64,000 nt of DNA from Naegleria gruberi (taxonomy: Eukaryota), in the NCBI GenBank assembly GCA_000004985.1, contig GG738849.1; one strand, given 5' to 3'. The notes beneath the pieces were generated by a model. That model was not told the DNA's origin and searched no databases. It saw only the letters and a list, made by a program, of their open reading frames with translations. Within the stretch, counting starts at the first letter, position 1. Each line of letters opens with the position of its first letter. Made by a program: the position numbers and the translations under genes. Shown in pieces: positions 1,117 through 41,852 of this stretch.

Positions 1117-3064
1117 TTAATATTTAATGTCTTGGACTGGTTCATCATTTCGGGATGTACTCAAAGAGGAAACACTCTGTGTGTCAGAAATCATGCTGAG
1201 TATATTACTGCTGGTAAGTTTGTTCTTATTACTCCTTCCTGCTAGTACTGACAAGTTGGTATTACTCTGGCTGTCTAAAAGTTGTTCTCTCATGAATTTA
1301 ACTTGTTGAATGAGTTCTGAATTTTCTGAAACCAAATCATCGTATGCTCCTGTTAATATTGAGAGTTTGTCATTATTTTGCATGTCCCTTTTCTGCATTT
1401 GCTCCTCCAACCTTAAAATATAATTCTCTGATTGGGTCAGTTCTTTTGAAACAATTTTCCTACTCTTTCTTTCAGATTCCAGTTTTTCCTTTAGTTTTTC
1501 ATTTTCTACCTTTAATTGTTCAATTATTCCCTTTTGAATTTCTTGTTTAATCCTCATTTCCTTAACAATCCTTGATTCTTTCGGGGTTATGCTTAGAGAA
1601 GAAGAATCGAGAAAAGACTTTAAAGAGCTAGTTAAATTTCTTGTCCTTTCAGTTTGGGATCCATCACTTTCAATGGTCAATTTTTGAAGTAAGGAACTAA
1701 TTTCTGATGTGAGAGATTCTCTTAAGCTCTCTGTTGCTCTTTCATTTTCATACCTATATTTGATTTCTTCTATTTTCTCTCGAAGAGAATAAATTACACT
1801 ATCCTTTTCACTAGATGTCATATTCAACACGGGGAATTTCTTTGGAGTACTATTCAGTAGGGATTGAGAAAGCTTTACGATGGGTGAGTCTTCAGCGCTT
1901 GGAATATCTTTTCGCAAGGTACTATTAACACTTGACAATTCTTCATCAGAAAGATGTTTAGAGAGAGACCGTCTTCCTTTCTTTACGTATGGTCTTTGAC
2001 TTCTAGTGAGGAATTTCTCCAACTCTTCAACTTGTGTTACAAATTGCTCTTCCAAATCGTTCTTTTCCTTAGTGACATCGTCGAGAGCATATTTCAACAC
2101 TCTGTTTGCCTCAATCATTGAATAGAGATCATTATCGGTCTCTAACCCATCATCGTCAGGAATTGGGGTAATGTCAATATTGTGTACAGAATCTATGAGA
2201 AGAGATGAATTTCTTGAAGAAGAATTTACACTTTTGCTCTAGGAATTAGAATTTGTAAATCGTCATCTGCTTGCACTTCCTGATCAATTGAATCATCCAA
2301 ATTGTACACTAATTTTTGAATAGGTTGAGGTGAAGAAGGGTCTTCAGTATTAAAATCCAATTGACTTGCACCATTCGGAGAATCACTAAGGCCAGTCGAA
2401 ATTGAACTAATTTCCGAATTTTCCTCATCCTCTGTATCAGTCATTTTGTATTTATCTGTTGCATATATTCTTCTTGAAAGTGGTTTTTGAGGAGAGGAAG
2501 TTTTTGAGGATTTCTTAATGGCTGATTGAAACATTCTCTCAACTTTTAATCGTTGGGCTTTTTGAATATCAAAATTTTCGGAAATGGCATTACAATATTC
2601 GGATGATGTATTATTGTTCAAAATATAATTATTATTATTATTCGATCGAGATGGGATGGGTTGGAAGTATTATCTTGTTGATGGTAGGGTAATTCTCTGG
2701 AGTAGGAAAACTTTCTAGGAGCATTGCTTCGAATTGGATTGCTGGATGGATGATGGTAATTGATAATATTTTCCTGATATTGTTGAAGATTTTGTTCGGA
2801 AAGAGTTGGATAATGGCTTGATGAATTTAAGGATGAAGAAGAGGAATTGGCAAAGGATGAATTTCTCGATATGACTGCAATGGAAGTACTAGATGATGAG
2901 AGCGAGGGCCTTCTTCCCCGAGAGGAGGTGGATTTCATTGGGGAATTTGAGGCTGCTACAATAATGGCAGCACTTCTCATTCCCAGCTCATCGAGGTAAT
3001 TGCCCTCTCCAATCAATGATGATGATGAAGATGAGGAAAGCAATGATGAGGTCGGTAGACTCAT
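1117..3064 (-). CDS. Serine-rich coiled-coil protein; one gene read as three ORF pieces with two frame disruptions (-1 near 2230 and -1 near 2620-2660). Possible pseudogene, or assembly indels
   Basis: Minus-strand ORFs 3064-2618, 2621-2226 and about 2238-1117 abut or overlap, share S-rich composition, and each successive frame is open before the previous one stops. No GT..AG intron can be placed across the second overlap window. The first junction lies in an (AAT)4/TTTT microsatellite. The second overlap window is only 13 nt and contains an A4 run. An ATTTTGGCGCCAAAAT palindrome lies about 55 nt upstream of the ATG at 3064. Confidence 0.45.
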
Positions 3065-10008: not shown

Positions 10009-13000
10009 TTATTTATTGAGCATTTCTTTCAAAGCATTCTTTTGTTCAGTGGTTAACATCTTTTCCAAGTGAGGTAATACTTGTTGATTGACTTGGCATA
10101 ATTCCTTCATCACTTGAGGAAGTATCTCAATAAGATTTACATTATTAATTGGATCTTTTGATGACAAGACATCGTCAAAGTACTCCTCTTCATCATCGTC
10201 AAAGTCATCATCAACAAGTTGATGTAAATAATCATCCTCAACATTAGAATCTGTACCCATAGGCTCACCACCATACAAGACACTTTCAGCAGAATATTCC
10301 TTCTTCTTGTCGTTTTCATTTTCCTTTGCTCTCACAAAAGCATCAACCAAAAGAACAAATGCATGAAGAACAAATGGCATTTGTCTTTCCTTTGTCTTTG
10401 ACTTGGATCTAGTTCTGTATTTTCCTGATGATTCCTTTTCAATTTCTACGGATACAGTAACTGTTCCCAAACGTTCATCTCCAGTTTGGAGCAATTTAGC
10501 CAAAGCTGTTGCTGTAACCTTTAACTTGTAAGCTCCAAAGAAAAATTGTTGATTCTTGGACCACTTATTCAAAAGACAAACTAGCCCATTAGAATCTCCA
10601 ACCTTGATTGATTCCAAAAGGTTGAACATTTGCACAACATCTTGATGATGGAAAAGCTTGGCAAACACAAAAACTATTGATTGAATGAAGATTAATTCTT
10701 CTGAGACATTCAATTTAACAATGCAAGCAGATAGAATTTTTCCAATAATTTCCATGTTAAGTGCAGTACCAAGCTTGGTAAAAATTTCAGTAATTAATTC
10801 GCCAACACCAAAAGCAGCTGATTCACTGAAATTTGGTTGCAACAATCTGTAAATATATTCCAATAAGAAGTGGAATGAAGAAACTTGGTGGTTTTGACTT
10901 GTAAATCTGTGTTGAACTAGAATTTCCTCACTCACATGAACAATGGATCTCAGGCATTCATTGATTTTTTGGATCCATGAAGGATCTTCATTGGAAAATC
11001 CAAGAGACATCAAACTAGGGAAGAGAGAATTCAAAATTGTAATAGAATCTTCCTTCTTTGCACGAACAATAATGGTATTAGACAAGTTGAGCAAATTCTC
11101 TACGAAATCTGATTTGGTGGCAGTTCCACTACTTGTGAAAATTTGAGCAATTCGTGGAATGACATTGTTAACGAGTTGAGCCTCAGTTTCTGGGATTTGT
11201 GCAAGCTTGTCGAATACATTAATAATATCACTTGAAATAGCATGATCATTAGAAAACTTGTCCAATTGATTCAACATAATTGAAATAACATTGGCGCTTT
11301 GAGGAACCACAACATGAGGTAAGAACTGCAATATTTAGAAATTTAGAATCACTCACACACATATAACAACTTACATTTACAAAAACAGCAATGCTTTCCA
11401 ATGGAATGTACATGGTTTCATCTGTTAAATCATCAACCAATTTACACATACAAAAGAGAATGTTTTGTAAAATCTCATCCTTTCCTTGTCCAAATGATGA
11501 GATGAGAGGTTCCAAAATTGGTGAATGTAAACAGAAAATTCTTGCAACTGCTTGACAAGAGTATAATCTCAATGGAAGTGGTTGTTGCTCGTTAAGGTGA
11601 TTTACATAAATAATAAATAATTGCTTGATCAGTTCAAGACTATTGATCTTGTATAGTTTGGTATTACTGATTTGTCCTAAGAAGAAGCTTGAACATTGGA
11701 TGGCTCTCGATTTCAAAAATTGCAAGCTTTCTGTGTTGACTTTCAAGTCATTTTGAACAAGTTGATTCATAAGAGATGGCAGATCGAAAATCTTTGGATA
11801 ATCTTCAATACTATCTCTGAATCCTGTAAAACTGGAAATACACATCAAGCAGGCTTCTCTGAGTTTCCACCAAGTACATGAATTAGAATTTTGAATATAT
11901 AAATTTTGTGATTCTTGCATTCTCTTGTGATATGCTTCAAGTAAACTTTCAACTGCTAAATTATCATAAGTATCATGGAAATCTTCAATCAATTTAGCAC
12001 AAGCAATTCTAATACTATAGCTGGAATATTGATTGTCTTCCTCAGAGACAAATTGTTCTGGTTCAGTTTCCCAAAGTTCTGTCATACTTTCTGGTAATTG
12101 AGAGTAACCAATTAATAAATAAATTAATTGAACCAAATTTGCCTTGCTAGAAGATAGCAATGTTGAAAGCTTTGGATTTAAAACAATTGTCGCCAAAAGT
12201 TCAATTTGTTGACAAATTACTGTTGTAAAGTTAACATTTTCACCTTCACTATCATATCTAGCTGCAATTTCTTTTGTTGGAATACCACTTTCAGATGGCG
12301 AAAGAACAGCATGTTTAAAGTAAGTTTCATATTCCTTTTCCAAAGAGATACAAGTTGATTGTAAAACAACAATGATTGCTTGTTGTAATGTTTTTCCAAA
12401 CTCTTTGATAAGTGTATTCATCATCTTGACACATTCCATCTTGAATGAGCAATCAGATTCAACATTTGGAATCGGTTTGCAAATTTCTCCTAACACTATA
12501 TTCATAGTTGGCTCCAAAGCAGTAGCCAATAATTTCTTTGATTCTTCAATGAGACGATCATCAATAACTCTTTCTCCCTCCTCTGGAGCTTCTTCATAAA
12601 CTCCATCATCCCCATAATCATCCACATACTCATCATCTTCATCAGTTACATCCCCTGATACCATAGCAATTAAAGAAAACATTTCTGAACAAACAGTAAG
12701 AGCTTTAGCTCTAATAATATCAGGTAATTGAGCATTTTCAGCAATTTTCAACATGTAAGGTACTAAAACTGGAAAAACGAAAATGGTATGCTTATCAGAG
12801 AAGTGTTGAGCAACAAGTGACAAACACTTGAGAGCACCCAATGATTGAGCAAAATTTTGTTGATTTGTTAAACCATTTTCATAAATATTAATTAAAATTT
12901 GAATCAAATCATTCCATTCCTCAGGAAATTCATGTTCAGCTGCCTCTGATATACTCATACCAAAAGCTGTATTAATTTTTGAAAGGAAAGCAGGAGGTGT

Positions 13001-13522
13001 ATCAACTTCAAAATCACCAACCATTAAACCCAAAGGAAGAAGATCCTTGAATTGTTTTTTCAAATCTGCTGATGTAATAGTATTCCAATGTGTTTTAATA
13101 TAACCCTTCAATAAAACTGCTGATAATTGTCTAACAGCAGGATTTAAAATAACATTCTTAAGTTGTGATTCTTGTTGAATAATTTGATGAAGAGGAAAGT
13201 GAATAGAACAATTAAACATGTTATTATCCGAAACACAAAATCTATTTCGGAATGGAATATAATCATAAAGTGATACATGTAAAAGTAAAATTCCATAATA
13301 TGAACATCGTGATGGAAATGATAATAATTCATTTTGTGCTCCATTAATTTCCTGTGGTGATACCATCACACCACCTCCAATCTTGTATAAACATTGAGCA
13401 AGAATAGAAAACTCGCGTTGGAGTTCTTCCATTGTGAGAGGTACAAATGAGCTGAAGGGTGGTACTACCGATGCATGTGATGATGAGGCGTGAAGCGGCG
13501 AACCAACAACTTTTGGCATCAT
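10009..13522 (-). CDS. Importin-9 / Kap114-type karyopherin-beta; two exons (13522..11375, 11325..10009)
   Basis: The N-terminus has an importin-beta N-domain (ESQLKNVILNPAVRQLSAVLLKGYIKTHW). The middle (YSSYSIRIACAKLIEDF...TWWKLREACLMC) and C-terminus (YKLKVTATALAKLLQTGDERLGTVTVSVEIEKESSGKYRTRSKSK...) align with importin-9, and the protein ends in an acidic tail. A 49-nt minus-strand intron (GTAAGTTGTTAT...TCTAAAT...TTGCAG) joins ORFs 11249..13522 and 10009..11331 in frame. Confidence 0.85.
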
Positions 13523-27735: not shown

Positions 27736-28261
27736 AGTAAACTGTTTTTTATCTCACCAAAAAAATAACAAACACCATACCCAATAATGATTGTGTTATC
27801 ACTCAACTCTGTCTCACCTTTAGAAAAAATGGAGGTTCACGACCACCCAAATATCTTTCTTGAATTGAATAGTTGGCCTCTGGCAAGGAAATGAAATTTT
27901 GAAACGATCTCAAGTTAGATGTACGATGAACTTTTTGCATACTATCTTTGATATCTTTCATGTCGAGATGTCAATTCCACCATTTTACTATAGACTTTTG
28001 ACGTTGTATCATAAAGTGTACTCCAACTCGCTCATTTTCCTTATAATCTACCTAGAATTGTATCACACAGTTATGGCATCTGTACTAGTTTTGAAACAAT
28101 TCATACCCTCTCATTCAGTCAATCAGGAAATGCTCAATGTCAACAATGTTTATCCATTTGAACACTCCATCTCAGAAAAAGTTCATCCAATGAGATACGA
28201 GTTTTTATTGTTACGGGTAGCATATACAATCAGAATTCAACATCTCAACAACGAAACCAGA

Positions 28262-28540
28262 TCTAATCTTTAGTCAATAAAGTTGAAAACAACCATCTTG
28301 TTATGGCTTCTGCAGTTCTGTCATCTTTTAGTCTTAGTTTTTCAAAAGCATGTCCAATCTTGGCTTCGTCATCTCCATTAAAACCTATCAATGCGGCCAC
28401 AATGATTTCCAGGTCAGAACCTTCCGTATCATTGGCATCTTTTGCTCTATTTTGCTTAGTCCAACACCACTGAAGCAGTTAACAATTCTTGGATGGACTC
28501 AACTGACCATGTGGAACAAGTATCCATATCTAATTGGTGC
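28262..28540 (-). other. Short minus-strand ORF pair: MDTCSTWSVESIQELLTASVVLD ends at TAA and continues in the +1 frame as KQNRAKDANDTEGSDLEIIVAALIGFNGDDEAKIGHAFEKLRLKDDRTAEAITRWLFSTLLTKD
   Basis: Non-low-complexity, protein-like composition. The junction is GAC TAA G (plus coordinates about 28455-28461). No homology could be assigned. Confidence 0.2.
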
Positions 28541-29679
28541 TGTCTCATTCTGAAAATTCCTGTTTTCCTTTTTAGAGTTTGGATTTTGGAGAAAGGATTT
28601 TCTTTTTTAAAGTATTTTCGTTTGTTCTATTGATTGTTTTATATTCCTTACTTCCTTCAGATAGACCTTCTGTAGATGAACTTTCCACTTCTGGTATGAG
28701 TTTTACAACTTCTTCCCCAAGAAATCAACAGGATACTTGGACACCCAACTATCATATAAAAGCTCCATAAATTCTTTCAACCTAGATATGCTTCTTGAAA
28801 ATAAGTGTACCTGAAGGGAAGTCTCTGCCATTTTGTTTTTATTAGATGGTGTGCAATCTGTTCGATAAACTTGCCCATAAACATGGGCTTGTATTGCAAA
28901 TGCTCTTATTGTTCTTTTGGCTTGTTTTCCTCCAGGAACGTAAATAGCTAGTGTGAAATGGGTGGGTATTTCATACGTAACAGAAACTTGCTTGTTATCT
29001 CCATTTAGAAGCTAGACATGCCGTGGGCCATGGTAGTAGTTGTATTTTTTTTTGTGTTAAAAATACATACCAACCGTAGTCTCCTTAGTTAACAGTCTAT
29101 TACTACAGGAGTTTCAAATGATGAATTGGATGTTGAATATCAGCAAGTTTCTAATTAAATAATAATAAAACTCATTATACACAAACACTACTTCAAAGGC
29201 ACGGTCATGATTCAATAGAATTTACTGACAAAGAAACATGCTGGCACTTCATGAAACATTCAATAAGAAGATTTTCTCTCCAAACTTAATGCCAGGTTTT
29301 GAGATACTGGTGGGCTTTGAATTTAACGAAAATGATTTGCATGTTGTTTGCCTTCTTGATGTGTTTTGAAGCTAAGGGAGTAGTGCACAATTTCCTTTTT
29401 GCTTAAAATATTTACCTCAAAACGGCATGGTAACTATTGACGATGTGGAATGGGAGTCTTCTTTTCATTGAAGGACTAACCACTTTCTGCTTGCATTGTA
29501 AAATCTCTAAACCTAAAAATAACTTCAAATACAAGATTGAAACAACAAAACCTTCAAATCCAAAAATACATATTCTAATTTTAAATTCAAACCAAAAAAA
29601 ACAACTTTTTGTGTAAACCTACTCGTTAAATTGCCTCTTTTGCAAAACGAAAATATAATTAAACCTATTAATTTCAAAA

Positions 29680-31093
29680 ATGATGATTAACAATACTATT
29701 AACGCTCAAGACAATATTGCTCTCTACAAGTACAAGCAACAATTAGAACAATTGGAAAATTGCAAAGGCTTGGGAACATCTGTTATTACCTTGTTGGTTA
29801 GTTGCAAGACTTCATTGACTCAAGTTATTTCTCAAATGGATCAACGTTTGACAAAGTCTAACAATATCAAGTCGTGTATTTAACAGGAATAGTGTTCAAG
29901 TGGCTACAAGGACTGTTATATCCAGATTAAAGCTATTGAAACAGACACCTGCTAATGGTTTGGCAATTTTCTGTGGAATGGTAAATCCAGATTCTGCTCC
30001 AGGTTTATTCTCTGATGATGAATCTAGTTTGGTGGTTGATAACGGTTTAGAAGGCTCTGACAATAATGCACATGTTGATTTGAAGAAATTGTGTGTTATG
30101 ATTGAACCACCAAATCCAATTGACAGCAATCTTTACTATTGTGACGATTGTTTCCATGTTGAACAGTTGAGAAGTCAATTGCAAGAATTTAATTCTGGAA
30201 AAACTTATGGTGTAATTGTTATTACAGGTACAGGTACTTTGTATGGTACTTTACGTGGAAATACCAGTAGTATTTTACGTGAATTTTCTCATGAACTTCC
30301 AAAGAAACATTCTAAGGGAGGTCAATCTCGTGAAAGATTTGCTAGAAATAGAGAAATTGCCAAGAATGAATATCTCAAGATTATTGCAGAGAAGGCAAAT
30401 GGTTTATTCGTTTCTTCAGCTCTCAATGCTCCAACTGTTGATGCTATTATTCTTGCTGGATGTGCAGAATTGAAGAATGAATTACTTTCTCTCAAATCTG
30501 ATTGTTTAGACTATAGATTGAGAACTAGAATTTTAACTGTTGTTGATGTTGCATATGGTGGCAGACCTGGATTTTATCAAGCTATTCAACTTGCACAAAA
30601 TGAAATTCAAGATTCTAGATTCTTGGAAGAGAGTGAAACCATTCAAGAGCTATTGAATTTACTTTCCAAAGGATCCAAGGCTGTTGTTGGTTTGGAAGAA
30701 ACCATGTTTGCTATTGCAAGTGGTTGGGCTAGTAAGGTAATCTTGTGCGAAAAGCAATCATCCTTGAAGAGAGTTACACTCTCTGATGATTCTGTTCACT
30801 ATTTGGAAGAAGACAAGATTAAATTCTTATTGGAAAGAAATTCTGTCAAGGTTGCTAGAATTGAAAACCTTATTGATTATTTAGTTGACAATTACAAGAA
30901 AATTGGTATTGACAAGTTGTCTCTTGTTACTGATTGTACTAATGAGGGAAATATGTTTTTGAAGGGCTTCTCAGGTATTGGTGCTATTCTAAAGTTTGAT
31001 GTAAATGTTGCCTCTCTTCTCTCTGAGGAGAAGGATAACTTTGAAGCTTTTGAAGAGGAAGCCTACAATGAAGACTTGTCCGAATTCTACTAA
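29680..31093 (+). CDS. Eukaryotic peptide chain release factor subunit 1 (eRF1), encoded in two frames: frame 1 runs 29680..29880 and ends NIKS-C-I-TAA; the +1 frame runs from about 29882 to 31093
   Basis: Frame 1 encodes LYKYKQQLEQLENCKGLGTSVITLLVS...RLTKSNNIKS (compare human [25 protein letters not shown]...TASNIKS). The +1 frame encodes NRNSVQVATRTVISRLKLLKQTPANGLAIFCGMV...GQSRERFARNR...GFSGIGAILKFDV (compare [32 protein letters not shown]...GGQSALRFARLR...). The frames overlap over only 32 nt (29852-29883), with the 0-frame stop in ATT TAA C. No GT-AG intron of plausible size fits. Confidence 0.85.
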
Positions 31094-31228
31094 ATGGATT
31101 AGAAAGTATATTAAGGATGAATTACAAATTAGATCCTTCAATTATTTGAACAACAACAAAATAAACTACAATTGTGTGAAGAATATTTTTTTGGCTTCTG
31201 CTGAATGGATAGCTATTGAGGGGTTAAG

Positions 31229-31242
31229 AAATGGCGCCATAG
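31229..31242. promoter_or_regulatory. Palindrome AAATGGCGCCATAG (GGCGCC core)
   Basis: About 60 nt upstream of the ARL2BP-like ATG at 31300. Confidence 0.35.
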
Positions 31243-31299
31243 TTAGTTAATCGTTGTATCTGTCTAAACATACAATGTCTAATAACAACTTTAAAAAAA

Positions 31300-31695
31300 A
31301 TGTCTGAAATTGTATATTCTGTTATGGAGTACTTGTTGGATGAACAATTCGGTGATGCTGTAGGTAAATTAAAAACATGATTCTAAATAATGGATGATAA
31401 GGTAGAAGAGTTCGGTAATAAGCACTGTGATATCTTTGAAATTGATGAAGAAGAACAAAAATTGGAATATACAAATGTATACAACAAATTCGTAAAGCTT
31501 TTTGAATCCAAAGTTGAAGAATTGCTTAAACAAAAGGGAGTCACACCTCAAGAATTTTATATTGAATGTAAAAGATTGTCTGAGGAAGAAAACGATCAAG
31601 AAATTGTAGAGTTCTTGTTAGCACTTTCAGATTATCAAGTATTTTACAACATGATGAAGGAAATCAAGTTGAGAAAACTAGGAAAACAACAATAA
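31300..31695 (+). CDS. ARL2-binding protein (BART)-like; two exons (31300..31359 or ..31363, 31402 or 31406..31695)
   Basis: The spliced product MSEIVYSVMEYLLDEQFGDAVEEFGNKHCDIFEIDEEEQKLEYTNVYNKFVKLFESKVEELLKQ...LALSDYQVFYNMMKE matches ARL2BP (FDAVVGYLEDIIMDDEFQ...EDTEENKLIYTPIFNEYISLVEKYIEEQLL...FTDFLAFKEMFLD). The intron is 42 nt (GTAGGT or GTAAAT donor, TTCTAAAT branch, AAG or TAG acceptor); both options give the same protein. An ATGGCGCCAT palindrome lies 60 nt upstream. Confidence 0.6.
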
Positions 31696-32113
31696 AACCA
31701 TTGTATTTTTAATAATTTATTATCATCATTGAGTAAGGAATTAGAGTAGTACGTTTATTGAATAAATGAAAAGAAATTAAAGGAATGGTACAGAATATTC
31801 TGTAACTTCTCACTCTATCTCAAAGTTGTAGAATGTTGTTATCAAAGTCTACTAAGGGACGTTTGTAACAAAATTTTCATTCATCAACCTGTCATCCCAG
31901 AGTGATATCAATGTGTCGTTGATGCAGTAATGTATGCCTTGTTGATTCCGATACTGTACAATTAGAAGTAATCAAAATTAATAGGTGTCACTTCTGATGA
32001 ATTAACAAAGCACAACAACCTTCCACCACTATTGCATTACCAATTCCGATACTCTTTTAAATTATAGTAAACGTACAAGTGTTGGATCAGGTCTTGACCC
32101 AACACTACTTTCC

Positions 32114-32347
32114 TCATGATCCTCCAAAACAATTTGGACCTTGTTTAGGTGGTCCTTTCACTCTTCCAATTGTTTTTCCTCCCGATCCTGAATAACCTCC
32201 AGATTGACCACCTTTGGATCCCTTGTTTTGTGGATTGAGTGAAGAGAAGAACAAGACAAGGAAGGATATAAATGCAGCCCACCAATACTTGATGGTTCCT
32301 ATCAATCCCCTAGATGATTGAATTTTACCACTACTGTCAATATACAT
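32114..32347 (-). CDS. Small (about 77 aa) single-transmembrane protein with a Gly/Ser-rich C-terminal tail; unassigned
   Basis: First ATG of ORF 32114..32491 at 32345-32347. MYIDSSGKIQSSRGLIGTIKYWWAAFISFLVLFFSSLNPQNKGSKGGQSGGYSGSGGKTIGRVKGPPKQGPNCFGGS. No family recognised. Confidence 0.3.
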   Translation of the reverse strand: MYIDSSGKIQSSRGLIGTIKYWWAAFISFLVLFFSSLNPQNKGSKGGQSGGYSGSGGKTIGRVKGPPKQGPNCFGGS

Positions 32348-32543
32348 TTTCCGAAGATCAGTTGTTGTATTGATAGTGAAGCGACAAAGAATGATCCCTT
32401 GGACAAAATTACGTATTTTTTTTCTATTTTTAAATTTTATTTTTGATTTTAAATTAAACACACATAAAGTTTTGATTAAGAAATTTTGCATTTGTTTTTA
32501 TTCTCATAGATTATGATATAAATGTTAATTTTTTGAAAAATAT

Positions 32544-35500
32544 TTAATTGGTATTGTTGAAATTTCGTTGTAATAAAAGTAAGGAATCATAACTCTTTAC
32601 ACTCTTCATGGTGCTAATCTTTTCATTATCTTTTGGAATCTGGAATGGTTTTTGTTGATCTTTGTACAAGGCACTATTTACAGGGAGGGGAGAATAAATA
32701 CCCAAATCTTCGCTGTCTCTTCGTGGAGAAAGGAGGAGGGGAGTGAGGCCACTTGTACTACCCTTTCTTTCCTTAAAATGTGGTTGATTTGAATGGTAGA
32801 CTTCATTATTTACAGGGCTAGAGCTGGAATTTTCCATTCTCTTTAGGATGAATCGGTGGAATTCATCAACAAATCTTTCCTGTCTTCTATTCTCAATAAC
32901 TCTGGTACCACGAGCAAGTTTGACAGCTTCCATAGCTTTGGCAGAGTCTAACAAGAGTGGTTGACGAAGTAATAGTACACAACTAGCAAGAGTACCTGAT
33001 CTTCCCAAACCAGAAACACTCTAAAAATTGTTTGTAAAAATTCAAAGCAAATATACAACATACCACAATTACAACATCTTCACCTTTCTTATCCAATGCT
33101 TCCTTAATCCATTCACACAATAGCAGTGTGTAATTCATTGGAGGAGGATGTCTTTGTTGGACTGGTAACATTCTTGTTTCTATACCCAAATTAGTTGCCT
33201 CTCTCAACAAGTTACCAGAGAGGTGTTCCAATTCGTCTTGTGTACTTAAAACAACGAGCTTTTTAACATTATTCTTTTGTAACACTTTCAAATCATTGAC
33301 CATAACACCACCATGTGAAGGACGACCAGGAATGATTGAGATACCAAGTCTTCCATACTTTTTCTTTTTTGGAGTTGCACCATTTTCTGAGTTTTGAGTA
33401 TTGTTAATTTCTCTCTTTTCAGCTGCTTGTTGATCGAGCATCTTTAAATTAATCCAATCAATGTGGTACTTGTCATTTCTGAATGCCTTTCTTTCAATCT
33501 TTTGAGCCAGAGCACATGCTGTTGCAAGGGCCCAAGCTCTTTGATAAAGAGTTAAAGAGTTCAATGTTGCCATATGAAGAGTGTATCTAAGAAGAACAAT
33601 ATCTAATTGAACTGGGTTACGATCTCCTCGGACCAATCTCTTTGTAATGCTTCTCAATTCAGCAACAGTCTCCCAAGCTCTCTTGAGCTTCTCTGATTTC
33701 AAACCAGGAAGTGTTGGAGGTAATGGTTCAGCCAAGTCTTTGACAGAAACAAGTTCCTTAGTGATTAATAAAGCCTCTTCGAGTTCCTTTTCATTTTCCA
33801 ATACAGTATACTCAAAGAGAACATCAGTCTCAAACTTGACCACATCTTTCAATATGTGAGTTCTCTCTGTATATTCAAAATCTATGAGCCATACATTTTC
33901 ATTGCTGTCTAGAATTACATTTCTTCCATTCAAATCGCCATGTACAAATGAAACGTAGTGGAATGATTTTGCTAAATATCCTTGCTTGATCTTTGGAATG
34001 GAATCTCTCAAAAAGTGTACAATATTCCTCACTCTAAATCCTCCTGGGAATATCAAATACTTTTCTTCACCATGAATTGTTGGCATTGTAACGGTTGAAC
34101 TAGAGCTATTGGTAAATACATTGGTACCATTTGAGGTTGATGTTGCAGAGATGGGTGTTGAGATTTCCTCAACATCCGAAACAGTAGGAGAATTATCTTG
34201 GGTAAGTTTTGGAACTTGTCTTGGCTCAAAGAATGAGCAATCTCTCAGTTCTGCAAACATTTTAAGTGTTCGATCTCGGACAGCATCTGGATTATCTGTT
34301 CCTCCAGTATGCCAGGCCCAGCCCTTTCCATTGAAATCATACGTTTCGAACAAGTCAATTTGTTCCAAAACTGCTGCATCATAGAATCTTCCCAAAACGC
34401 CATAAAAAACTCGATGGAGAACAGATTTGATAGTTTGCATACTTCCTCCACTAATGTACAACTCTCTGAATGAGCCTGCTGATGGTGTCTTGGGTTGCTT
34501 CTTACTTGCAAATGGAGAGAGTGGTGATTTAGGAGAAAGTAAATCTGAATCTGATGAATATTGAAAATCATCCTCAAACATGGAAGCATATGCAAATTTG
34601 ATACCAGCTCTATCTTTCAATTCAGTAAAACCACGAATTTGAGGAGCATTATTACCTAAAATTTCCTCAACCTTTTCAAAATTGACTCTTTCTCTTGTGA
34701 TGGGACCTCTCCTTCCTATTTTCAAAATTGAAGTTGCTTGAACATGTCCCATACTATCCTTTGAGTTGACTTTAAATACCCATGAGCCTGAATACCCTCC
34801 TGAAAGAGGAGTAAACATTACATCAGTGCTATCATGGTACAATAAACAAATAATTTCCTTATCTACATCCGAGATTTTGTTAATATCATCACCCAGAGTT
34901 TTCCAATGAATACATGGAATAATACGATGCTCCTCGATTGACTCGTTTGCATCATCTAGTTCCATATCATTATCAGAGGATGGTATTGACAAGTCAAATG
35001 ATGTTGAAGTGGGAGATGGTGATATTTGTTTGAAGAAAAAGGCTCCACTACTCACAATGGAACTACTAGGAGTCTTTTTCCACCAAAATGGTATCAGCCA
35101 TTCTTGAAAGTCACATAAACTGTAAAATATTGAAACACTAAAGTACCTTTCTAATTGTTGTAAGCTAGCAAAGTGTTGATGTCTGGAACGACTTGCTGTC
35201 AAGGCACTACAAGTACCAAGTATTTGAGCAAACCTTCTATATCTTGTGAAGAGCTCATAAAATAAATATTGAATTGTTGATTCTGTCCATACACCAATAG
35301 CTCCAATTTTAACATTGAGCTTTTTTTGAGTACCATTTGTTAAATTTTCTTGGTCGAGTTGTTTTTGTTTTTTCTGAATTGCGTTCTGTATTTTTTCTTC
35401 TAGATCTGTATTGAAAAATGCATTAACACTTGTAATGTTTACATAGGATTCATTCTCACGATTGGGCACATCTTTATCCAAATTTAATACCAAGTTGGCA

Positions 35501-36825
35501 CCTGATGTTCCCTTAACAGAAAATAACCCATTACAAATATACTTGTCAGGAGAATCATCCTCACTAGTGGAGTCTGTCTTTTTACAAACCAAGTGATCAA
35601 TTTCATTCCAAAAACGAACATGAATTATTTCTAAATGAGCTGATGATTGTCTTCTGGCCCAATTCATAAAGTTTTTCAGTGGACCACTTTTATAATCACT
35701 TCCTAATAAACGTTGGCTTTCAGGTTTGCCAACATGCATAAATGTGCTCGAGTCAAAATCGAGAGAGCCCGAGTAATTTGTTCCCACTTGTTCAGGAAAC
35801 TTTCCTATAAAATCATTTTGTAAACAATTCGTAATTAATATACTAAAATCCTCAATATCCGAATTTTCCAAATTATTGTTATTTGAATTTTGTTCATAGA
35901 TATGTTGTGATTTGGAAGTTGAACTTTCCAACAATGAATTATTGGCCATAATATTATTATTATACCTTGATAAACTTTCCGATAATGAATTATTAACAAA
36001 TTTCAATAGTGATTGATTTGTTATAGTAGCTGCTGTATTACTATTTTTTGAATATTGGTGATGATTGCCTTCTCGTTGCTGTTCTTGTCTACTAGAAAAA
36101 AAGTCTTTTTCACCCATTAACGGCGATTCATTTTTTTGATTCGTTGGTGTTGGTGTGTTGTTATGGTGAACATTCTTGATTGGAGCAGATGTTTGAAAAT
36201 TCAACAAGTTTTCATCTCCGTCCGACATTTGTGTGAGTTGTTTGGAGTTTAATACACAGTATTGGTCCTTCTCACTCAATGAATGAGGAGGATTGAGAAG
36301 AGAAGAAGTATTGAATGATGCTGTTGCTGCGGTAAAATTTGTTAGATTGGAAGAATTAATTGTGCTCTCGAGGTGATTATTTGGTTGTATTGAATGTGGT
36401 TGTTGTTGCTGATTGAACATCCAACGAGTGCCGTGTTGTCTTAAATTAATGCTGCTACTACTATTGCTCTTATTACTTCTTTCCGATGATGAGAGAGATC
36501 GATGATGAAATATATTATTGTGATGAGGTGTTGTTGAGATGGTTGGAGTGAGGCAATCATGATTGTAGTTGTTAGTTGGTGGCAGTGGTTCAGATATTCT
36601 ACGGAAAGAAGGGGAACCATTTGTATGATGATGCTTACTTGGTGATGATGATGATGTTTTAGATTCAACACTTGTGGTAGCAAAGAGTTTTGTTTGTTGT
36701 TCTTTCATGACACTTATTTTCAATGATTCTTTCTGAGCTTTTCCAATACTATGTGTTTGGAAATGATTTATTAGAGATGATGACATTGGATTCTCTTGTG
36801 GTTTCTGTTGATGAAGGTTTTGCAT
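32544..36825 (-). CDS. Large S/N/Q-rich protein with a central kinase-like domain (actin-fragmin-kinase / APH-choline-kinase-like fold) and a C-terminal CDKN3/KAP-like dual-specificity-phosphatase-like domain; two exons (36825..33064, 33020..32544)
   Basis: Kinase-like motifs YVSFVHGDLNGRNVILDSNENVWLIDFEYTERTHILKD (HGDL..N and DFEY, like APH/ChoK/AFK). The phosphatase-like end ...GEDVVIVV|SVSGLGRSGTLASCVLLL resembles KAP VHCYGGLGRSCLVAACLLL. A 43-nt intron (GTATGTTGTATATTTGC...TTTTTAG) joins ORFs 32983..36825 and 32544..33008; the unspliced read-through gives nonsense (VVCCIFALNFYKQFLECFWFGKIRYSC*). Confidence 0.7.
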
Positions 36826-37195
36826 GTTTTTTCTTCTGTTCTAGTAGGTGATGATTCTTCAACTGTTGTTGATCTGGGAAGGAAGTCCTGATTCAACGAT
36901 TGACAGATGAATTTGCAACATTTGTATTATTTATTAATTACAATCTTTATCTTATTTCTGTAAACAATTTCTTAAAGTAGAGTTTCATGTTTCTGATGTA
37001 TTTGAAATCGACTTTACAGTTTAGTTGTTCAACAATTTTCATTTATTGGAAATTATTAAACTAAAACCAAAGCATACTCAAATTTAATTTTCAATTTTTA
37101 TAACTCTTTTAACTAGTTTTATTAAATCATATTACCATATTTTATAACATTTTATTATTAATAAATATTTCTTTTTGAATTCTAACCACAAAAAA

Positions 37196-40100
37196 ATGAA
37201 ATTACACAACCGAAGAATTAAACCTGCTGGAAGTGGATTAATTTCAGCCGTGGACAAGAATGCATCCACTGGGAATTTATTGGCACCACCACAACAACAA
37301 AATTCATCAAGGAGTGCTTCACCATCGTCAAACAATGTCGGAGCAGGAAATTTTAATACACCATCATCGAGTTATAGAAAATGTTTATTGATGGTCCATG
37401 AGAAGGATTTTAGTGATCAGGAAATATTAATTAATGGAAAAGCAATTACGTGGCTTCAAATAGGAGATATTTTGGAAATTTCTCAACCAAAGACGCCACC
37501 TTCTAATGAACATAATGCTACTACTTCATCATCACCAGTTTCTTCATCAGTGAATATTAATAGTGCCTCAACACCAATTGATATTTCTGGTGTTGCCACT
37601 CAGAATTATTCGGATTTATCCTTCTCTCCTTTTTCTTCATATAAATCACCAGCAAAAGCATCAACACCACCAACAGGGGCAAGTTTTAAACAAGCACCTT
37701 CAGTGGGGAATGTTACAAGTAATGCACAACAACAACAACCACAACCTAGTTTTACCTCCTCAGCAAGTAATCCAAAGACATTTATTGTAAAAGTAACTTC
37801 TCTAGATGCACAAAAAGGTGTTCCCTATTTGAGCATTTCAAAAAACATTGCAGACGTTTTTGATTTTCAATCGAGAAAGGATGTTTATGTTCGAGTAATA
37901 CCAAAAGAAAGTGCCATGTTGGACTATGCTGTTTTTTCTATTCGGGATCACTTTCTTTCCAGATCAGATATGTGGAGATTTGGATTATATTTGAATGATA
38001 CTAGTGTTTATGAATCAAAAACTTTAACATGGCATGGTGGTATCAGAGTCCAAGTAAAGGAACTCATGAAAGAAACAACTGGAAAAGTGTCATCAGGAAT
38101 AATAGTTTATGGTCATACCAAGATAACATATCGTTCAAATTCAGCTGTAATATATTGGTTATTCCAAATGAGTAGAGAAATGTGGGAATATGACGAGTAT
38201 GGTAACTTGATTTTTGAAAGAGTTATTAATGGATTTATTAAAACAGTTTTTGATAGATGGAGAGAAGTTGGTGTTAACCACTCACTATCAATAGTATTCT
38301 TTTCGAGACACTACATAACAGAAGAGGACAAGGATAATTTTGAAGAGACGAGAAATGAAGAGGATCATATGGCATCCTTAGGAAATAGAACAAATATTAA
38401 TCATTCTATTATTGGATCTAAAGATGGAAAACGATATGTAGATTTTTACAAAGTAGTTGATTGTACTGAAACTCAAAGAATACGATCACAAGAAATCAGA
38501 ATTCTTTTAAAGAAGGAATTTTTAGAATTTGAAAATATGGTAAAAGGTATAGCAGAAAAGGAAAGAGTAGTATTGCAAAATTCATCGGCAGCAGATAGTA
38601 ATTTTATGGAAGCTATTAATTTAGTTTTAAACAGTTATGACAAGTATTACATTAATCGTGATCTTACTAGAACAGGCCAAGTTATTCTTTTGGTATCACC
38701 AGGTAGTGGAATGTTTGATGTACAAATACCAGTTTTGGGTAAGATTACTACCAAAAGGTTGATGGATGTTGGTTTATCAGTTGACCTTATTGCCCATTCT
38801 GTTCCCCCACTTCACTCGGTACCTATTTTCAGGTATAAAAAGAAAGAAGTTGGAGTTTCTAATAACCAAGAATCACCTCATTTGAAGGAATATACATATT
38901 ATAGATCTCCTGATTGGATCAATATTACATTTTACAGAGAAAATTATTTCAAGAATGATATTTGTATAGATCATGAGGATTGTGAATGCACAGATAGCGC
39001 CAGTAATCTCTTCCTCCCAGTTTCTAAAATGCCTAATTTAGAAACGCTTCCAACCAACATTCCACTATTTGAAAAATACTGGACTAACTTTAATTCAATT
39101 AATAGCAATTCTCATCATACCAATAACTCGAGTGGAAGTATTGCAGAATTGTGTCGTCAACATGATGAACAAGTTTTCAAAATCTTCCAACAATCTCGTC
39201 AAACCTCCCACTACCAAACATCTTCCCTTTCCAATATTTCCCACATATCTAAAAAGACAAGCCTCTCATCACACGACCTTATTCATGGAACACCAACAAA
39301 GCAGAGAGAGGAAAGGTCCATAATTTCCGACTCGAGTCCAAAGAATCCCCACATTATCAATCACCACCTGGAAGAATTGAAACAATCTGAACACATTTCA
39401 GGACTGCCCAGCAGTGGTAGCAGTGTTGGATTTGAATCATCTTTTGATACCAATCATCAGAATGACTTCAATGGATCAACACCAAGTAATAATGCATCTA
39501 CAAATACTCCTCAACACGGAGGTTCTCATTCAACTCATCATCTTCCAATCACTCATAATTCTGCCAGTTCAATGGTAAATATGGGCAGTGCAAATAGTGG
39601 TGTTCTGCGACGTTCACCACATTCTGGAACACCATTCATGGCTGAACTAGCTGAAAGACACAAGGCCAAAGAATTGTTCTACATGAAACTGTTCAATCCA
39701 TTCCATATGGATTCCGAAACCTTATCAAGCCCAGGCTCACTTCAAAACAACAATCAACAAAACACTTTCCACAGAAAGAGATGGGGTCACTTACATCCAA
39801 GTTCAGGTCTCAGACCAACCCAAAAATCAGAATATATCAAACATTTTCTTCTCAATGTTAACTGGCAAGGTGTTTCAGAACCTGCCTGTTTACCAATTAC
39901 CACAGATTATTGGCCTGAGTCTGCCCTTAAGATTTTGAATGATTTTGATTTGCACACACATACCATTACTGATACCAATAATATTTACAAAAGTATTTCA
40001 ACCCTTGTGAGAGAATTAGTTTGTCAAAGATTACATCAAGGTTTCCAATTATTTAATGATGATTTACCCAAAGATCCTCTCAGTAACCAACCAATTATAA

Positions 40101-41792
40101 TAACACCTTTGCCAACTCGTAATGATGATACAGATAATACTTCTTCTTCACTGCGATAACACTGAAAAGTCTGATGCATCCAATAATATGGAAGCTGATA
40201 ATATTTCAACTATATCCACTGGATCAAACAATTCTGAACTCTCAACTCAATCAAAGAGAGGAAGAGGAGGAAGAGCTCTCAGAGGAGGAAGAGGTGTCAA
40301 TGCTGCTGCAATGAGAAGAAGGCCACCAACAACCAATACTTCTAACAGCACATCAGAAACAACAGTAACACACGAATCTTCATCAAAACAAAAGGTAAAA
40401 CCTCAAAAGATGGAATATTGTCTTTCTTCAGCAAATCAATTCCACAAAATAACCTACAATCCAAATATTTCCAACATGGTTACAATTGATCGTTATGTTC
40501 CTAAGGTTGCTAAAAGTGCAGACAAACCATCATCAACTACAAGTAGTGGAACCAATAGCTCATCCAATAATAGTTCCTCTACAACACTAGTCAATGATGC
40601 TGATCCATTTAATAATGCTAGATCCACTTACACTTATAGATACATGCTTTGGAATCCAACTTTGAAGAGCTATGAATCCAGAGTTACCAGATTCAATTCA
40701 GCAGTTGACTATAATTGGAATAAGTTGGATTACTTGATTTGTGGTGATCACAATCAAATGACAGACGAACTGCACAACAGATCCCTTCAATTCCACATTG
40801 TGCCAATCAACAACTCTAACAAGAACTTGTTTGCCTCTCAAACTCAATTATTTGGAGCTTTCAATAATAATTCTAGTTTACAGGTGCTTGGTGGTTCTAA
40901 CAACAATTCTAGTAGTGATTTATTCTCACAAGCTTCTAACAGCTCTAATGAATACACCAAGAGATTGGAAAACTTTAAGAAATTTAAAGATGCAATTGTA
41001 AATAGGTCATTTAGGGGAATGGATGGAGATAATGTTGATGTTTCACTTATTGGAGATGAGAGCTCAACTAACCAAATACCATCCAACAGCTCTGCTAAAA
41101 CAGCCAAACTTCAATTTGTCCCACAAGAAGGAGGAATTGATGACAACAGTCGTGTGGAGTGGTTAAATATTGTATATAAGGCATCTTACCATCCTGCAGA
41201 ATTTTGGTCGTTTAAGGTACAATGGCTTGTCTGTACAGCTGCCCTCATTGATGAATTTTTACAGACATTGGCCAGAAGAGCCAGGCAATTAGGATTTGCA
41301 ATGATTCAAACTCCAGCTGAAATTGATAGCTATACAAACTTTGTTCATGCCTCAAAACAAGCTGCAGATAGATTGTTACATGGCAATTATAAAACAGGAG
41401 GTCTAGATCCATTGGAGAATGTACATCCTTTCAGAAGTTATGTCAGAATACCAATTACCTCAATAGAGGCAATGTATTCTATTAGAAATGCCATTTGTGA
41501 ACCTCCTCTTAATTTTATTCCAGACTCTTTCCACAGAAAGAATTCAAAGAGATTTATTCACATCAGTGGTTGCATTATTTTACATATTGATGCTATTAAG
41601 GGCTCTGATACTGCCCTAATTACTTGGATAGACAATCCATTCCAAACTTTTGATTTGAATGTTGCCAATTCAGTCGACCAAAATGATATACTCAACACTT
41701 TGAGAAAACTTGTATTCTCGGAGGCATCAGGAGCAGGCAAGTTCACTTTACAACTAACTCCTGGAAGTAATCCTTTTGAATATTCCCAATAG
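37196..41792 (+). CDS. DEPDC5 / Iml1 (GATOR1/SEACIT subunit) ortholog; coding sequence switches from frame 2 to frame 0 within 40104-40159 (CGA TAA C)
   Basis: N-terminal Iml1 domain (KCLLMVHEKDFSDQEILINGKAITWLQIGDILEISQP; RSDMWRFGLYLNDTSVYESKTLTWHGGIRVQVKELM...IVYGHTKITYRSNSAVIYWLFQMSREMWEYDEYGNLIFERVINGFIKTVFDRWRE...SIVFFSRHY; INLVLNSYDKYYINRDLTRTGQVILLVSPGSGMFDV). Middle (PACLPITTDYWPESA...RELVCQRLHQGFQLF). After the frame switch, the C-terminal region (YNWNKLDYLICGDHN; RVEWLNIVYKASYHPAEFWSFKVQWLVCTAALIDEFLQ) continues the DEPDC5 alignment. Confidence 0.8.
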
Positions 41793-41852
41793 TGCAATGA
41801 CTCAATTTCTCAAGTTGTACAACTATTCAAGAATAAATACGAAATAAATTAT

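What the first reader, a model, noticed from the sequence alone, without database searches (positions are those of the whole stretch)
28440..40160. Recurring pattern: ORF ends at TAA and the conserved continuation is in the +1 frame (ATT TAA C, CGA TAA C, GAC TAA G)
Three independent cases in 12 kb (eRF1, DEPDC5, and a short minus-strand ORF at about 28455) share the same geometry: a sense codon, then TAA, then continuation one nucleotide downstream. Random indels would produce +1 and -1 breaks at arbitrary distances from the first downstream stop. Here all three +1 cases are compatible with a shift exactly at the stop, as in the stop-codon-dependent +1 frameshifting described in Euplotes, although this genome uses the standard code. 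The alternative explanation is systematic assembly error. The two -1 breaks in the gene at 1117-3064 show that not every break follows this pattern.
Basis: inference. Interest (0 to 1): 0.6.

Follow-up and report, generated by a model that had tools for sequence, protein, structure and literature searches.

The report
Frameshift switch in Naegleria eRF1 gene
The only gene for the protein that ends translation (eRF1) in the amoeba Naegleria gruberi and its relatives is interrupted by a conserved stop codon, so the ribosome must slip one base forward to finish it, a self-regulating design known from bacteria and giant viruses; the other two cases in the finding are not shown to be the same thing.

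Summary
The window is Naegleria gruberi.

1. eRF1 is a real, conserved recoding site. A 67-codon ORF ends ..NIKS-C-I-TAA-C, and the rest of eRF1 continues in the +1 frame. The same in-frame TAA-C after an NTT codon sits at the same residue in 11 distinct gene sequences I read. These include N. lovaniensis, Willaertia magna and a 99%-identical sister strain. 45 of 46 other eRF1 loci with both halves are unbroken. Substitutions that are silent only in frame 0 place the shift at NUU-UAA-C. This matches bacterial prfB (CUU UGA C) and Megavirus eRF1 (CUU UAA C). I found no report of it for a cellular eukaryote.

2. The minus-strand ORF is a copy damaged by a 10-nt and a 1-nt deletion relative to the intact sister-strain gene.

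3. The DEPDC5 break lies in a low-complexity linker. It is absent in Acrasis kona DNA and in the N. fowleri protein model, and it remains unresolved.

Two other +1 breaks checked in the window are ordinary 43-49 nt introns. A genome-wide Euplotes-like pattern is not supported. An eRF1-specific programmed +1 frameshift, probably autoregulatory, is.

The parts
29680..29880 (+). eRF1 ORF-A: 67 codons in frame 0 (MMINN...TKSNNIKSCI). It holds the GTS loop and NIKS motif of the stop-codon-reading N domain.
   Evidence: Pfam eRF1_1 on the orthologous small ORFs
29878..29884 (+). Shift site ATT TAA C: last frame-0 sense codon (Ile), in-frame TAA, and C at +4. The T at 29881 is skipped, and AAC (29882-29884) is the first +1-frame codon.
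   Evidence: the equivalent [A/C/G]TT TAA C is present in all 11 distinct sequences read
29890..29892 (+). Second frame-0 stop (TAG), two codons after the TAA, so simple readthrough cannot rescue the protein.
   Evidence: read directly from the sequence
29882..31093 (+). eRF1 ORF-B in the +1 frame: 403 codons (NRNSVQ...YxCxxxF, GGQ, C-terminal domain ...SEFY) plus the true terminator TAA-A.
   Evidence: gap-free alignment to human eRF1 across the junction
37175..40159 (+). DEPDC5/Iml1-like ORF-A, ending CGA TAA C (stop at 40157-40159).
40104..41792 (+). DEPDC5 +1 frame, open from 40104. Similarity to N. fowleri resumes at 40158. The break is not conserved in N. fowleri or Acrasis kona, and its cause is unresolved.
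28263..28548 (-). Disrupted copy of a small conserved gene (intact 98-aa orthologue P0052 in L064). It has a 10-nt deletion near 28467 and a 1-nt deletion near 28454. GAC TAA G is an out-of-frame reading of GGA CTA AGC.
33021..33063 (-). Canonical 43-nt intron (GTATGT...TTTTTAG). It explains the +1 break between the 1280-aa and 154-aa ORFs and is conserved in L064.
11326..11374 (-). Canonical 49-nt intron (GTAAGT...TTGCAG). It explains the +1 break between ORFs 11249..13522 and 10009..11331.

Best explanation
The real feature is a programmed +1 ribosomal frameshift in the eRF1 gene of Naegleria gruberi, conserved in heterolobosean amoebae. Ribosomes translate 67 codons in frame 0 and reach NUU-UAA-C (AUU UAA C here; CUU or GUU in relatives). 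UAA followed by C is a weak terminator. If eRF1 does not promptly occupy the A site, the P-site Ile/Leu/Val tRNA re-pairs one base forward on UUU, or the incoming Asn-tRNA reads AAC out of frame. Translation then continues in the +1 frame to make full-length 470-aa eRF1. If eRF1 is plentiful, termination yields a useless 67-aa fragment. Because the stop is read by the gene's own product, this forms a negative feedback loop like bacterial RF2.

Shown here: the split, its exact position, its conservation, and the weak versus strong stop contexts. Inferred: that the event is ribosomal, and that it is autoregulatory.

The other two cases are not shown to be this mechanism. The minus-strand ORF is a copy carrying two deletions. 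The DEPDC5 break is most likely a strain-specific +1 lesion or sequence error, less likely a 76-nt intron or an opportunistic use of the same UAA-C shift.
For: Identity: the best hit is N. gruberi eRF1 at 100% identity, and it is the only N. gruberi eRF1 found.

Conservation: the in-frame TAA and +1 continuation occur at the same codon in N. lovaniensis, Willaertia magna, metagenomic relatives L003/L009, L004/L005, L014, L015, L065 and L066, Naegleria sp. L067 and sister strain L064. L064 has no indel in the gene. Small ORF-A products in the protein database all end ..IKS[S/C/R][I/L/V]. 45 of the 46 other eRF1 loci from the metagenome scan with both halves are in a single frame.

Position: in Willaertia and L015 the +1 frame is closed just upstream of the site. 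L067 differs from N. gruberi by ATC>ATT, AAG>AAA and TGT>TGC. These are silent in frame 0 and non-synonymous in +1. So frame 0 is read through codon 65.

Product: the fused protein aligns without a gap to human eRF1 across the junction, NIKS-CI-NR versus NIKS-RV-NR.

Stop contexts: the internal stop is TAA-C in all 11 sequences read. The true terminator is TAA-A in the six genes checked to their end.

No intron: no GT..AG candidate was listed for N. gruberi, and possible GT..AG lengths are inconsistent between species (read).

Precedent: CUU UGA C in prfB, and CUU UAG C / CUU UAA C in the Mimivirus/Megavirus eRF1-like genes, with frameshifting shown experimentally (PMC3521657).
Against: There are no transcript, ribosome-profiling or protein data, so the ribosomal nature of the event and the feedback are inferred.

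No conserved RNA structure or other stimulator was found downstream, so it is unexplained how efficiency is made high enough for an essential protein.

In most species the +1 frame just upstream spells S-R-V-F, echoing the canonical S-R-V. This initially suggested an earlier shift. It fails in L067 and Willaertia but is an odd coincidence.

The P-site re-pairing for AUU and GUU keeps only 2 of 3 base pairs.

The search for a second, unbroken eRF1 in Naegleria was limited to one word-indexed protein search.
Confidence: 0.85

Rival explanations
1. Genome-wide, Euplotes-like decoding: in Naegleria an internal TAA generally directs a +1 shift, so eRF1, DEPDC5 and the small ORF are three instances of one widespread mechanism.
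For: DEPDC5 also has TAA-C with AAC as the +1 codon. It is the only TAA-C among 28 long-ORF ends in the window. Similarity to N. fowleri runs in frame A to 40150 and in frame B from 40158. The 556-codon downstream frame is still fully open.
Against: The small ORF is explained by two deletions relative to an intact orthologue. The DEPDC5 linker is one continuous frame in Acrasis kona DNA and in the N. fowleri protein model. Two other +1 breaks checked are canonical introns. -1 breaks also occur. No further TAA-C +1 pair was found in about 125 kb of heterolobosean sequence. The motif differs from the Euplotes AAA-UAA/UAG.
Confidence: 0.1
2. Assembly or sequencing indel errors account for all three breaks.
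For: The window has other unexplained frame breaks (1117-3064). The small ORF differs from the sister strain by indels. DEPDC5 could not be checked in a second assembly.
Against: For eRF1 this is excluded. The same interrupted structure appears in independent assemblies of many taxa from different projects. Across the 7.7 kb aligned with L064, which spans the whole eRF1 gene, the net length differences inside long ORFs are multiples of 3, and none lies in eRF1.
Confidence: 0.03
3. The eRF1 frame is restored at the RNA level, by a tiny intron, U-deletion editing, or polymerase slippage on TTT, rather than by the ribosome.
For: No transcript data were available with certainty. Willaertia annotators modelled an 'intron' over the site.
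Against: No GT..AG pair gives a consistent +1 correction across species: 16 nt in N. gruberi, 20 nt in L003, 24 nt in L004 (read). All are far below the 43-92 nt introns seen here. Such an intron would also delete 5 conserved residues. A run of 3 T is too short for known slippage. The gene-sized contigs L003 and L009 start at the same base in two samples, and L014 is also gene-sized. They look like transcript assemblies and still carry the TAA, which is suggestive only.
Confidence: 0.05
4. The shift is real but happens one or two codons earlier: a +1 after the Ser of NIKS, a -2 that re-reads CG to give NIKS-RVF-NR, or a +1 after codon 65. The TAA would then be a by-product of Phe-Asn (TTT AAC) in the +1 frame.
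For: The +1 frame reads S-R-V-F-N-R in 8 of the 10 sequences read upstream of the site. The variable bases (first positions of codons 65 and 66) are third positions in the +1 frame. TTT and AAC never vary.
Against: L067 has TGC at codon 65, which is silent in frame 0 but changes Val to Ala in +1, and AAA for Lys, which changes Ser to Asn in +1. Willaertia has Leu, not Arg, at that +1 position. The -2 product is one residue longer than every canonical eRF1, whereas the stop-site product aligns without a gap. Codon 66 is always I, L or V like canonical Val66, never TTT. No known mechanism shifts at UCG-U or UGU-A. A single T insertion into the canonical GTT AAC explains how the site arose.
Confidence: 0.05

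Closest known systems
Bacterial RF2 (prfB) autoregulatory +1 frameshift, CUU UGA C
   Same: A release-factor gene split into a short ORF and a +1 ORF. An in-frame stop is read by the gene's own product. The P-site codon is NUU followed by U, so the tRNA can re-pair on UUU. C follows the stop. N. lovaniensis and Willaertia have CUU UAA C.
   Different: The protein family is unrelated (eRF1 versus RF2). The stop is UAA, not UGA. No Shine-Dalgarno-like stimulator is possible on an 80S ribosome, and none was found. AUU and GUU variants are also used. The site lies inside the stop-codon-recognition domain, two residues after NIKS. In prfB the first ORF is about 25 codons (from my own knowledge).
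Mimivirus R726 / Megavirus mg280 eRF1-like genes (Jeudy et al. 2012, PMC3521657)
   Same: An eRF1-family gene with a +1 frameshift at CUU UAG C (Mimivirus) or CUU UAA C (Megavirus) in the 5' part of the gene. The internal stop context is weak and the terminal one strong. The Megavirus heptamer is identical to that of N. lovaniensis and Willaertia.
   Different: The viral genes also need an upstream UGA readthrough, and Naegleria ORF-A has no in-frame UGA. The viral proteins have an N-terminal insertion and a C-terminal deletion. That paper states the mechanism was otherwise found only in bacteria and that other eukaryotic RFs have no internal stops. I could not test whether the shift is at the homologous residue or whether the proteins are related, because R726 was not retrieved.
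Euplotes genome-wide +1 frameshifting at AAA-UAA/UAG
   Same: An internal stop codon triggers a +1 shift, with no need for a large RNA structure.
   Different: In Euplotes more than 10% of genes are affected, the sites are not regulatory, and UGA codes for Cys (PMC4759687, PMC10235951; abstracts seen). Here only one conserved gene is involved, the genetic code is standard, and the P-site codon is NUU.
Yeast Ty1 / ABP140 (CUU AGG C) and EST3 (CUU AGU U) +1 sites
   Same: A seven-base signal with CUU in the P site, a slowly decoded A-site codon and a following C, without a downstream structure (from my own knowledge).
   Different: In yeast the pause comes from a rare sense codon, not from a stop, so there is no link to release-factor level.
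Antizyme +1 frameshift (UCC UGA U) and plant eRF1 readthrough/NMD autoregulation (PMC5397192)
   Same: Both are sensor logic. An in-frame stop in a regulator's own mRNA is recoded according to the level of what it regulates. Plant eRF1 also autoregulates through its own termination efficiency.
   Different: Antizyme senses polyamines and uses flanking RNA elements. Plant eRF1 uses readthrough of its normal stop plus a 3'UTR intron and NMD, with no frameshift.

Membership tests
Release-factor autoregulatory +1 frameshift (prfB type) | The release-factor coding sequence is split into a short 5' ORF and a long ORF in the +1 frame. | tested here: met
   ORF-A 29680-29883 and ORF-B to 31093, offset +1. 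The fused product aligns to eRF1 without a gap.
Release-factor autoregulatory +1 frameshift (prfB type) | The in-frame stop at the junction is one read by the encoded factor, and it is conserved. | tested here: met
   TAA at the same codon in 11 distinct sequences. eRF1 reads all three stops (established knowledge).
Release-factor autoregulatory +1 frameshift (prfB type) | The P-site codon can re-pair in +1 (NUU U), and the stop has a weak context (C at +4). | tested here: met
   [A/C/G]TT TAA C is invariant. True terminators are TAA-A in the six genes checked. TAA-C occurs at 1 of 28 long-ORF ends in the window.
Release-factor autoregulatory +1 frameshift (prfB type) | An upstream Shine-Dalgarno-like stimulator. 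| tested here: not met
   Not applicable to 80S ribosomes. The upstream bases are the NIKS codons. No conserved structure was found and there was no Rfam hit.
Release-factor autoregulatory +1 frameshift (prfB type) | Frameshift efficiency falls as release-factor level rises (feedback). | not testable with these tools
   Needs reporter assays or ribosome profiling with altered eRF1 dosage.
Giant-virus eRF1-like recoding (Mimivirus R726 / Megavirus mg280) | A CUU UAR C +1 site in an eRF1-family gene. | tested here: met
   CUU UAA C in N. lovaniensis, Willaertia and L067; AUU or GUU in the others. The viral motif comes from PMC3521657.
Giant-virus eRF1-like recoding (Mimivirus R726 / Megavirus mg280) | An additional upstream UGA readthrough. 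| tested here: not met
   ORF-A is open from ATG to TAA with no UGA in any taxon read from its start codon.
Giant-virus eRF1-like recoding (Mimivirus R726 / Megavirus mg280) | Sequence or phylogenetic affinity, and the same shift position. | not tested
   R726 and mg280 were not retrieved. The 26 giant-virus eRF1 loci fetched are all unshifted, and most are canonical-like.
Euplotes-type genome-wide stop-dependent +1 frameshifting | Many unrelated genes carry internal stops that require a +1 shift. | tested here: not met
   Within 64 kb only eRF1 is supported. The small ORF carries two deletions. The DEPDC5 break is not conserved. Two other +1 breaks are introns. There were no further cases in about 125 kb. 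The sample is small.
Euplotes-type genome-wide stop-dependent +1 frameshifting | AAA-UAA/UAG shift motif and a variant genetic code (UGA = Cys). | tested here: not met
   The motif is NUU-UAA-C. Long ORFs are free of all three stops.
Spliceosomal intron | GT...AG boundaries of plausible length that restore the frame, conserved between species. | tested here: not met
   For eRF1 no candidate was listed. The possible GT..AG spans are 16, 20 and 24 nt in different species. This feature is met for the breaks at 33021-33063 and 11326-11374. For DEPDC5 there is a single weak candidate, 40119-40194.

The most novel reading that the evidence does not exclude
UAA-C may be a general, eRF1-titrated +1 shift signal in Naegleria. 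On this reading DEPDC5 (CGA UAA C, +1 codon AAC, with a still-intact 556-codon downstream frame) is expressed through the same slip. The eRF1 feedback loop would then set a cell-wide balance between termination and frameshifting that lets +1 insertions survive, an early stage of the Euplotes condition. A second unexcluded reading is that the heterolobosean gene and the Mimiviridae release factor, which share the CUU UAA C signal, are related by gene transfer that carried the recoding signal with it.
Probability: 0.12. Interest if true: 0.85.

Novelty: new variant of a known kind. Interest (0 to 1): 0.72.

Why it matters
Release-factor autoregulation by a stop-codon-dependent +1 frameshift is a textbook bacterial circuit. 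The 2012 giant-virus paper described it as otherwise exclusive to bacteria, and I found no report of it for a cellular eukaryote in six full-text searches.

Here the sole eRF1 of a whole amoeboid lineage, which includes relatives of the pathogen N. fowleri, can only be made by frameshifting. This has several consequences.
- It gives a natural eukaryotic system for studying stop-codon-stimulated +1 frameshifting with a minimal linear signal.
- It offers a cellular counterpart for the Mimivirus/Megavirus release factor, whose origin is unexplained.
- It shows that the public Naegleria and Willaertia eRF1 gene models are wrong. They are truncated, split in two, or carry a false intron, and so lack the NIKS/GTS stop-recognition region.
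- Comparative studies of eRF1 and the genetic code that used those models would have been working from incomplete proteins.

Tried and rejected
1. Synteny of the eRF1 neighbours with N. lovaniensis, Willaertia and metagenomic loci, tried to judge the small minus-strand ORF. Only eRF1 itself is shared. Pfam on the small ORF gave nothing. It was resolved through the representative-protein search and the sister-strain contig.

2. An intron explanation for eRF1 was rejected (plus species comparison).

3. An earlier-shift or -2 model suggested by the +1-frame 'SRVF' was rejected using L067 and Willaertia.

4. A conserved RNA structure 3' of the site: none was predicted. Rfam had no hits in 28000-42000.

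5. Two giant-virus scans to find Mimivirus-type release factors returned only unshifted eRF1/aRF1-like genes.

6. Independent DNA for the N. gruberi DEPDC5 junction: exact-product look-ups failed. Only the N. fowleri protein model and Acrasis DNA were obtained.

7. A crude scan of about 125 kb for more ORF pairs at TAA-C was dominated by spurious alternative-frame ORFs and yielded no new case.

8. Literature searches for a prior report of an eRF1 frameshift in Naegleria or Heterolobosea found none. Subscription-only papers are not covered.

Full report
**Source and setting.** The window is from Naegleria gruberi. The conceptual eRF1 protein hits 'eukaryotic peptide chain release factor subunit 1 [Naegleria gruberi]' at 100% identity on an 850-kb contig. 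The region is gene-dense, about 34% G+C. Long ORFs are free of all three standard stops, so the genetic code is standard.

**Checking the observation.**
- ATT TAA C is at 29878-29884.
- CGA TAA C is at 40154-40160.
- GAC TAA G is on the minus strand at 28461-28455.

The argument that a shared geometry is informative does not hold. Whenever two ORFs overlap with a +1 offset, a shift at the stop is always possible. Only conservation can say where the frame actually changes. I therefore examined each case separately.

**eRF1: the break is real and conserved.**
- ORF-A (29680-29883) encodes 67 residues ending ..TKSNNIKSCI*. The +1 frame continues NRNSVQVATRT.. through the YxCxxxF and GGQ motifs to ..SEFY* at 31093.
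- Public gene models miss this. The N. gruberi, N. lovaniensis and N. fowleri-like models start at an internal Met (MVNP..). The Willaertia model removes 19 residues around NIKS as an 'intron'. N. lovaniensis has two separate gene calls.
- I read DNA for 11 distinct sequences: the window, sister strain L064, Naegleria sp. L067, N. lovaniensis L001, Willaertia magna L002, and metagenomic or unnamed-assembly relatives L003/L009, L004/L005, L014, L015, L065 and L066. All show the same structure..AT[C/A/T] AA[G/A] TC[G/T] [T/A]G[T/C] [A/C/G]TT TAA C [A/C]G[G/T/A]...
- L064 is an Illumina metagenome contig, 99% identical to the window over the 7.7 kb that spans the eRF1 gene. It has no indel in the eRF1 gene, and the net length differences inside long ORFs in that alignment are multiples of three. 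This excludes assembly error.
- A profile search with ORF-A found further small gene products that all stop at the same residue..IKS-SV, -CI, -SL, -SI, -CV and -RL.
- 45 of the 46 other eRF1 loci from the metagenome scan that show both halves read through in one frame. The exception, L053, rests on a partial alignment and may hold an intron.

**eRF1: where the shift happens.**
- Frame 0 is clearly coding up to NIKS.
- In Willaertia and L015 the +1 frame has a stop inside ATA-AAG, which limits the shift to three codons plus the stop.
- In most species the +1 frame there spells S-R-V-F, echoing the canonical S-R-V. I therefore considered an earlier +1 shift or a -2 shift.
- L067, which is 86% identical to N. 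gruberi in protein, settles this. It has ATT AAA TCG TGC CTT TAA C where N. gruberi has ATC AAG TCG TGT ATT TAA C. Three of the changes are silent in frame 0 (Ile, Lys, Cys) and alter the +1 reading from SSRVF to LNRAF.
- Frame 0 is therefore read through codon 65, and the shift is at NUU-UAA-C.
- The resulting product, NIKS-[S/C/R]-[I/L/V]-NR, has the same length as the canonical NIKS-R-V-NR. It aligns to human eRF1 without a gap across the junction.
- A single T inserted into an ancestral GTT AAC would create GTT TAA C. This is an inference.
- Readthrough cannot help, because frame 0 has a TAG two codons further on.
- No GT..AG pair gives a consistent correction across species (read).
- No conserved RNA structure follows the site, and Rfam finds nothing.
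- The internal stop is TAA-C in all 11 sequences read. The genuine terminator is TAA-A in the six genes checked to their end.
- Among 28 long-ORF ends in the window, TAA-A is the commonest and TAA-C occurs once.

**eRF1: mechanism.** The anatomy matches the known minimal +1 sites. The P-site tRNA on NUU can re-pair on UUU. The A-site codon is slowly decoded, here a stop in the weakest context. A C follows. Because the stop is decoded by the product of this same gene, low eRF1 should favour frameshifting and high eRF1 should favour termination after 67 codons. That is the RF2 logic. The split, its position and its conservation are shown. The ribosomal nature of the event and the feedback are inferred. 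The contigs L003 and L009 begin at the same base in two samples, and L014 is also gene-sized. They look like transcript assemblies and still carry the TAA. This speaks against RNA-level correction but is not proof.

**Comparison with what is known.**
- Bacterial prfB uses CUU UGA C.
- Jeudy et al. 2012 (PMC3521657) showed that the Mimivirus and Megavirus eRF1-like genes need a UGA readthrough and then a +1 shift at CUU UAG C or CUU UAA C. They state that this autoregulatory mechanism is otherwise found only in bacterial factors, and that other eukaryotic class-I RFs contain no internal stops.
- N. lovaniensis and Willaertia carry the Megavirus heptamer exactly. Naegleria lacks the readthrough stop.
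- I could not retrieve the mimiviral sequences to test positional or phylogenetic homology. The 26 giant-virus eRF1 loci I fetched are all unshifted.
- Six full-text searches found no report of this feature in Naegleria, Heterolobosea or any cellular eukaryote.

**The minus-strand ORF (28456-28548).**
- A search of 1.8 billion representative proteins found a family of small proteins and a 93%-identical 98-aa member, P0052.
- Its contig, L064, is syntenic with the window.
- The intact gene reads ..LLTASVADGGVGLSQNRAKD.. In the window copy a 10-nt deletion (GTGGCAGATG) and a 1-nt deletion (the C of AGCC) give a net change of -11 nt.
- The conserved GGVGLS motif lies in the third frame. The TAA is an out-of-frame reading of GGA CTA AGC.
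- This is a damaged copy or a sequence error, not a shift at a stop.

**DEPDC5 (37175-41792).**
- The +1 frame is open from 40104, so the shift could be anywhere in 40104-40159.
- The region is a Ser/Asn/Thr/Asp-rich linker.
- The N. fowleri protein model runs through its linker without a break.
- Acrasis kona DNA has one continuous frame through its linker.
- The break is therefore specific to this N. gruberi sequence.
- Points for a shift at the stop: similarity to N. fowleri extends to 40150 in frame A and resumes at 40158 in frame B. The stop is TAA-C with AAC next. The 556-codon downstream frame is still open.
- Points against: there is no conservation, and CGA cannot re-pair in +1.
- One weak intron candidate exists, 40119-40194, with GTAATG..GGAAG boundaries. 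It is 76 nt and its composition looks like coding sequence.
- My estimates are: recent lesion or sequence error about 0.6, PRF about 0.2, intron about 0.2.

**Other breaks in the window.**
- The +1 breaks at 33021-33063 (GTATGT..TTTTTAG, 43 nt, conserved in L064) and 11326-11374 (GTAAGT..TTGCAG, 49 nt) are ordinary short introns.
- The gene at 1117-3064 has two -1 breaks, one beside an (AAT)n tract.
- A crude scan of about 125 kb of heterolobosean sequence found no further long ORF pair joined at TAA-C.

**Verdict.** The recurring-pattern claim is not supported. One of its three examples is a well-supported, conserved programmed +1 frameshift in the eRF1 gene. It works like prfB and like the mimiviral release factor. 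I found no report of it for a cellular eukaryote in the literature I could search.

Noticed in passing
window 29680-31093; L001:9667-11131; L002:10001-11432: Public gene models of eRF1 in N. gruberi, N. lovaniensis, a N. fowleri-like Logan assembly and Willaertia magna are wrong. They are truncated at an internal Met (MVNP..), split into two genes, or carry a false 'intron' over the NIKS region. All lack part of the stop-codon-recognition domain.
   Followed up: yes
L003:265-285, L014, L015, L065, L066 (and P0071-P0073): Several of the frameshift-bearing lineages have RIKS instead of the near-universal NIKS motif. All lack the canonical Arg65 except P0090 (NIKS-RL). I did not examine whether this alters stop-codon recognition.
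   Followed up: no
window 32544-36825 (-), L064:322-4585: A 1280-aa protein (Pfam TCAD9) continues after a 43-nt intron into a phosphatase-like loop, VVIV|SVSGLGRSGT. The catalytic His-Cys of the HCxxGxxR motif appears to be replaced, so it may be a pseudophosphatase.
   Followed up: no
window 1117-3064 (-): A Ser/Asn-rich coiled-coil-like gene has two -1 frame breaks. One is beside an (AAT)n tract near 2620-2670, the other near 2228. Neither has a convincing GT..AG intron of the right phase.
   Followed up: partly
window 28263-28548 (-); P0052-P0063: A family of small proteins (about 96-170 aa in most hits) with conserved motifs W-x-V-x-x-I-x-x-LL, GG[VI]GL and ..VxALxxFxGDxExKIEHA.. and no Pfam match. 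The hits are unnamed ENA metagenome proteins where I looked them up. The window copy is disrupted.
   Followed up: partly
L064 (ENA ERZ929261, 8958 nt) vs window 27960-37145: An environmental metagenome contig is 99% identical to and collinear with the window over 29471-37145, and about 95.5-99% identical over 27960-28883. It gives a second strain of N. gruberi, or a sibling species, for checking any frame break in 28-37 kb.
   Followed up: yes
window 31390-31695 (+); L064:5450-5755: A small ARL2-binding (BART domain) gene lies immediately downstream of eRF1.
   Followed up: partly
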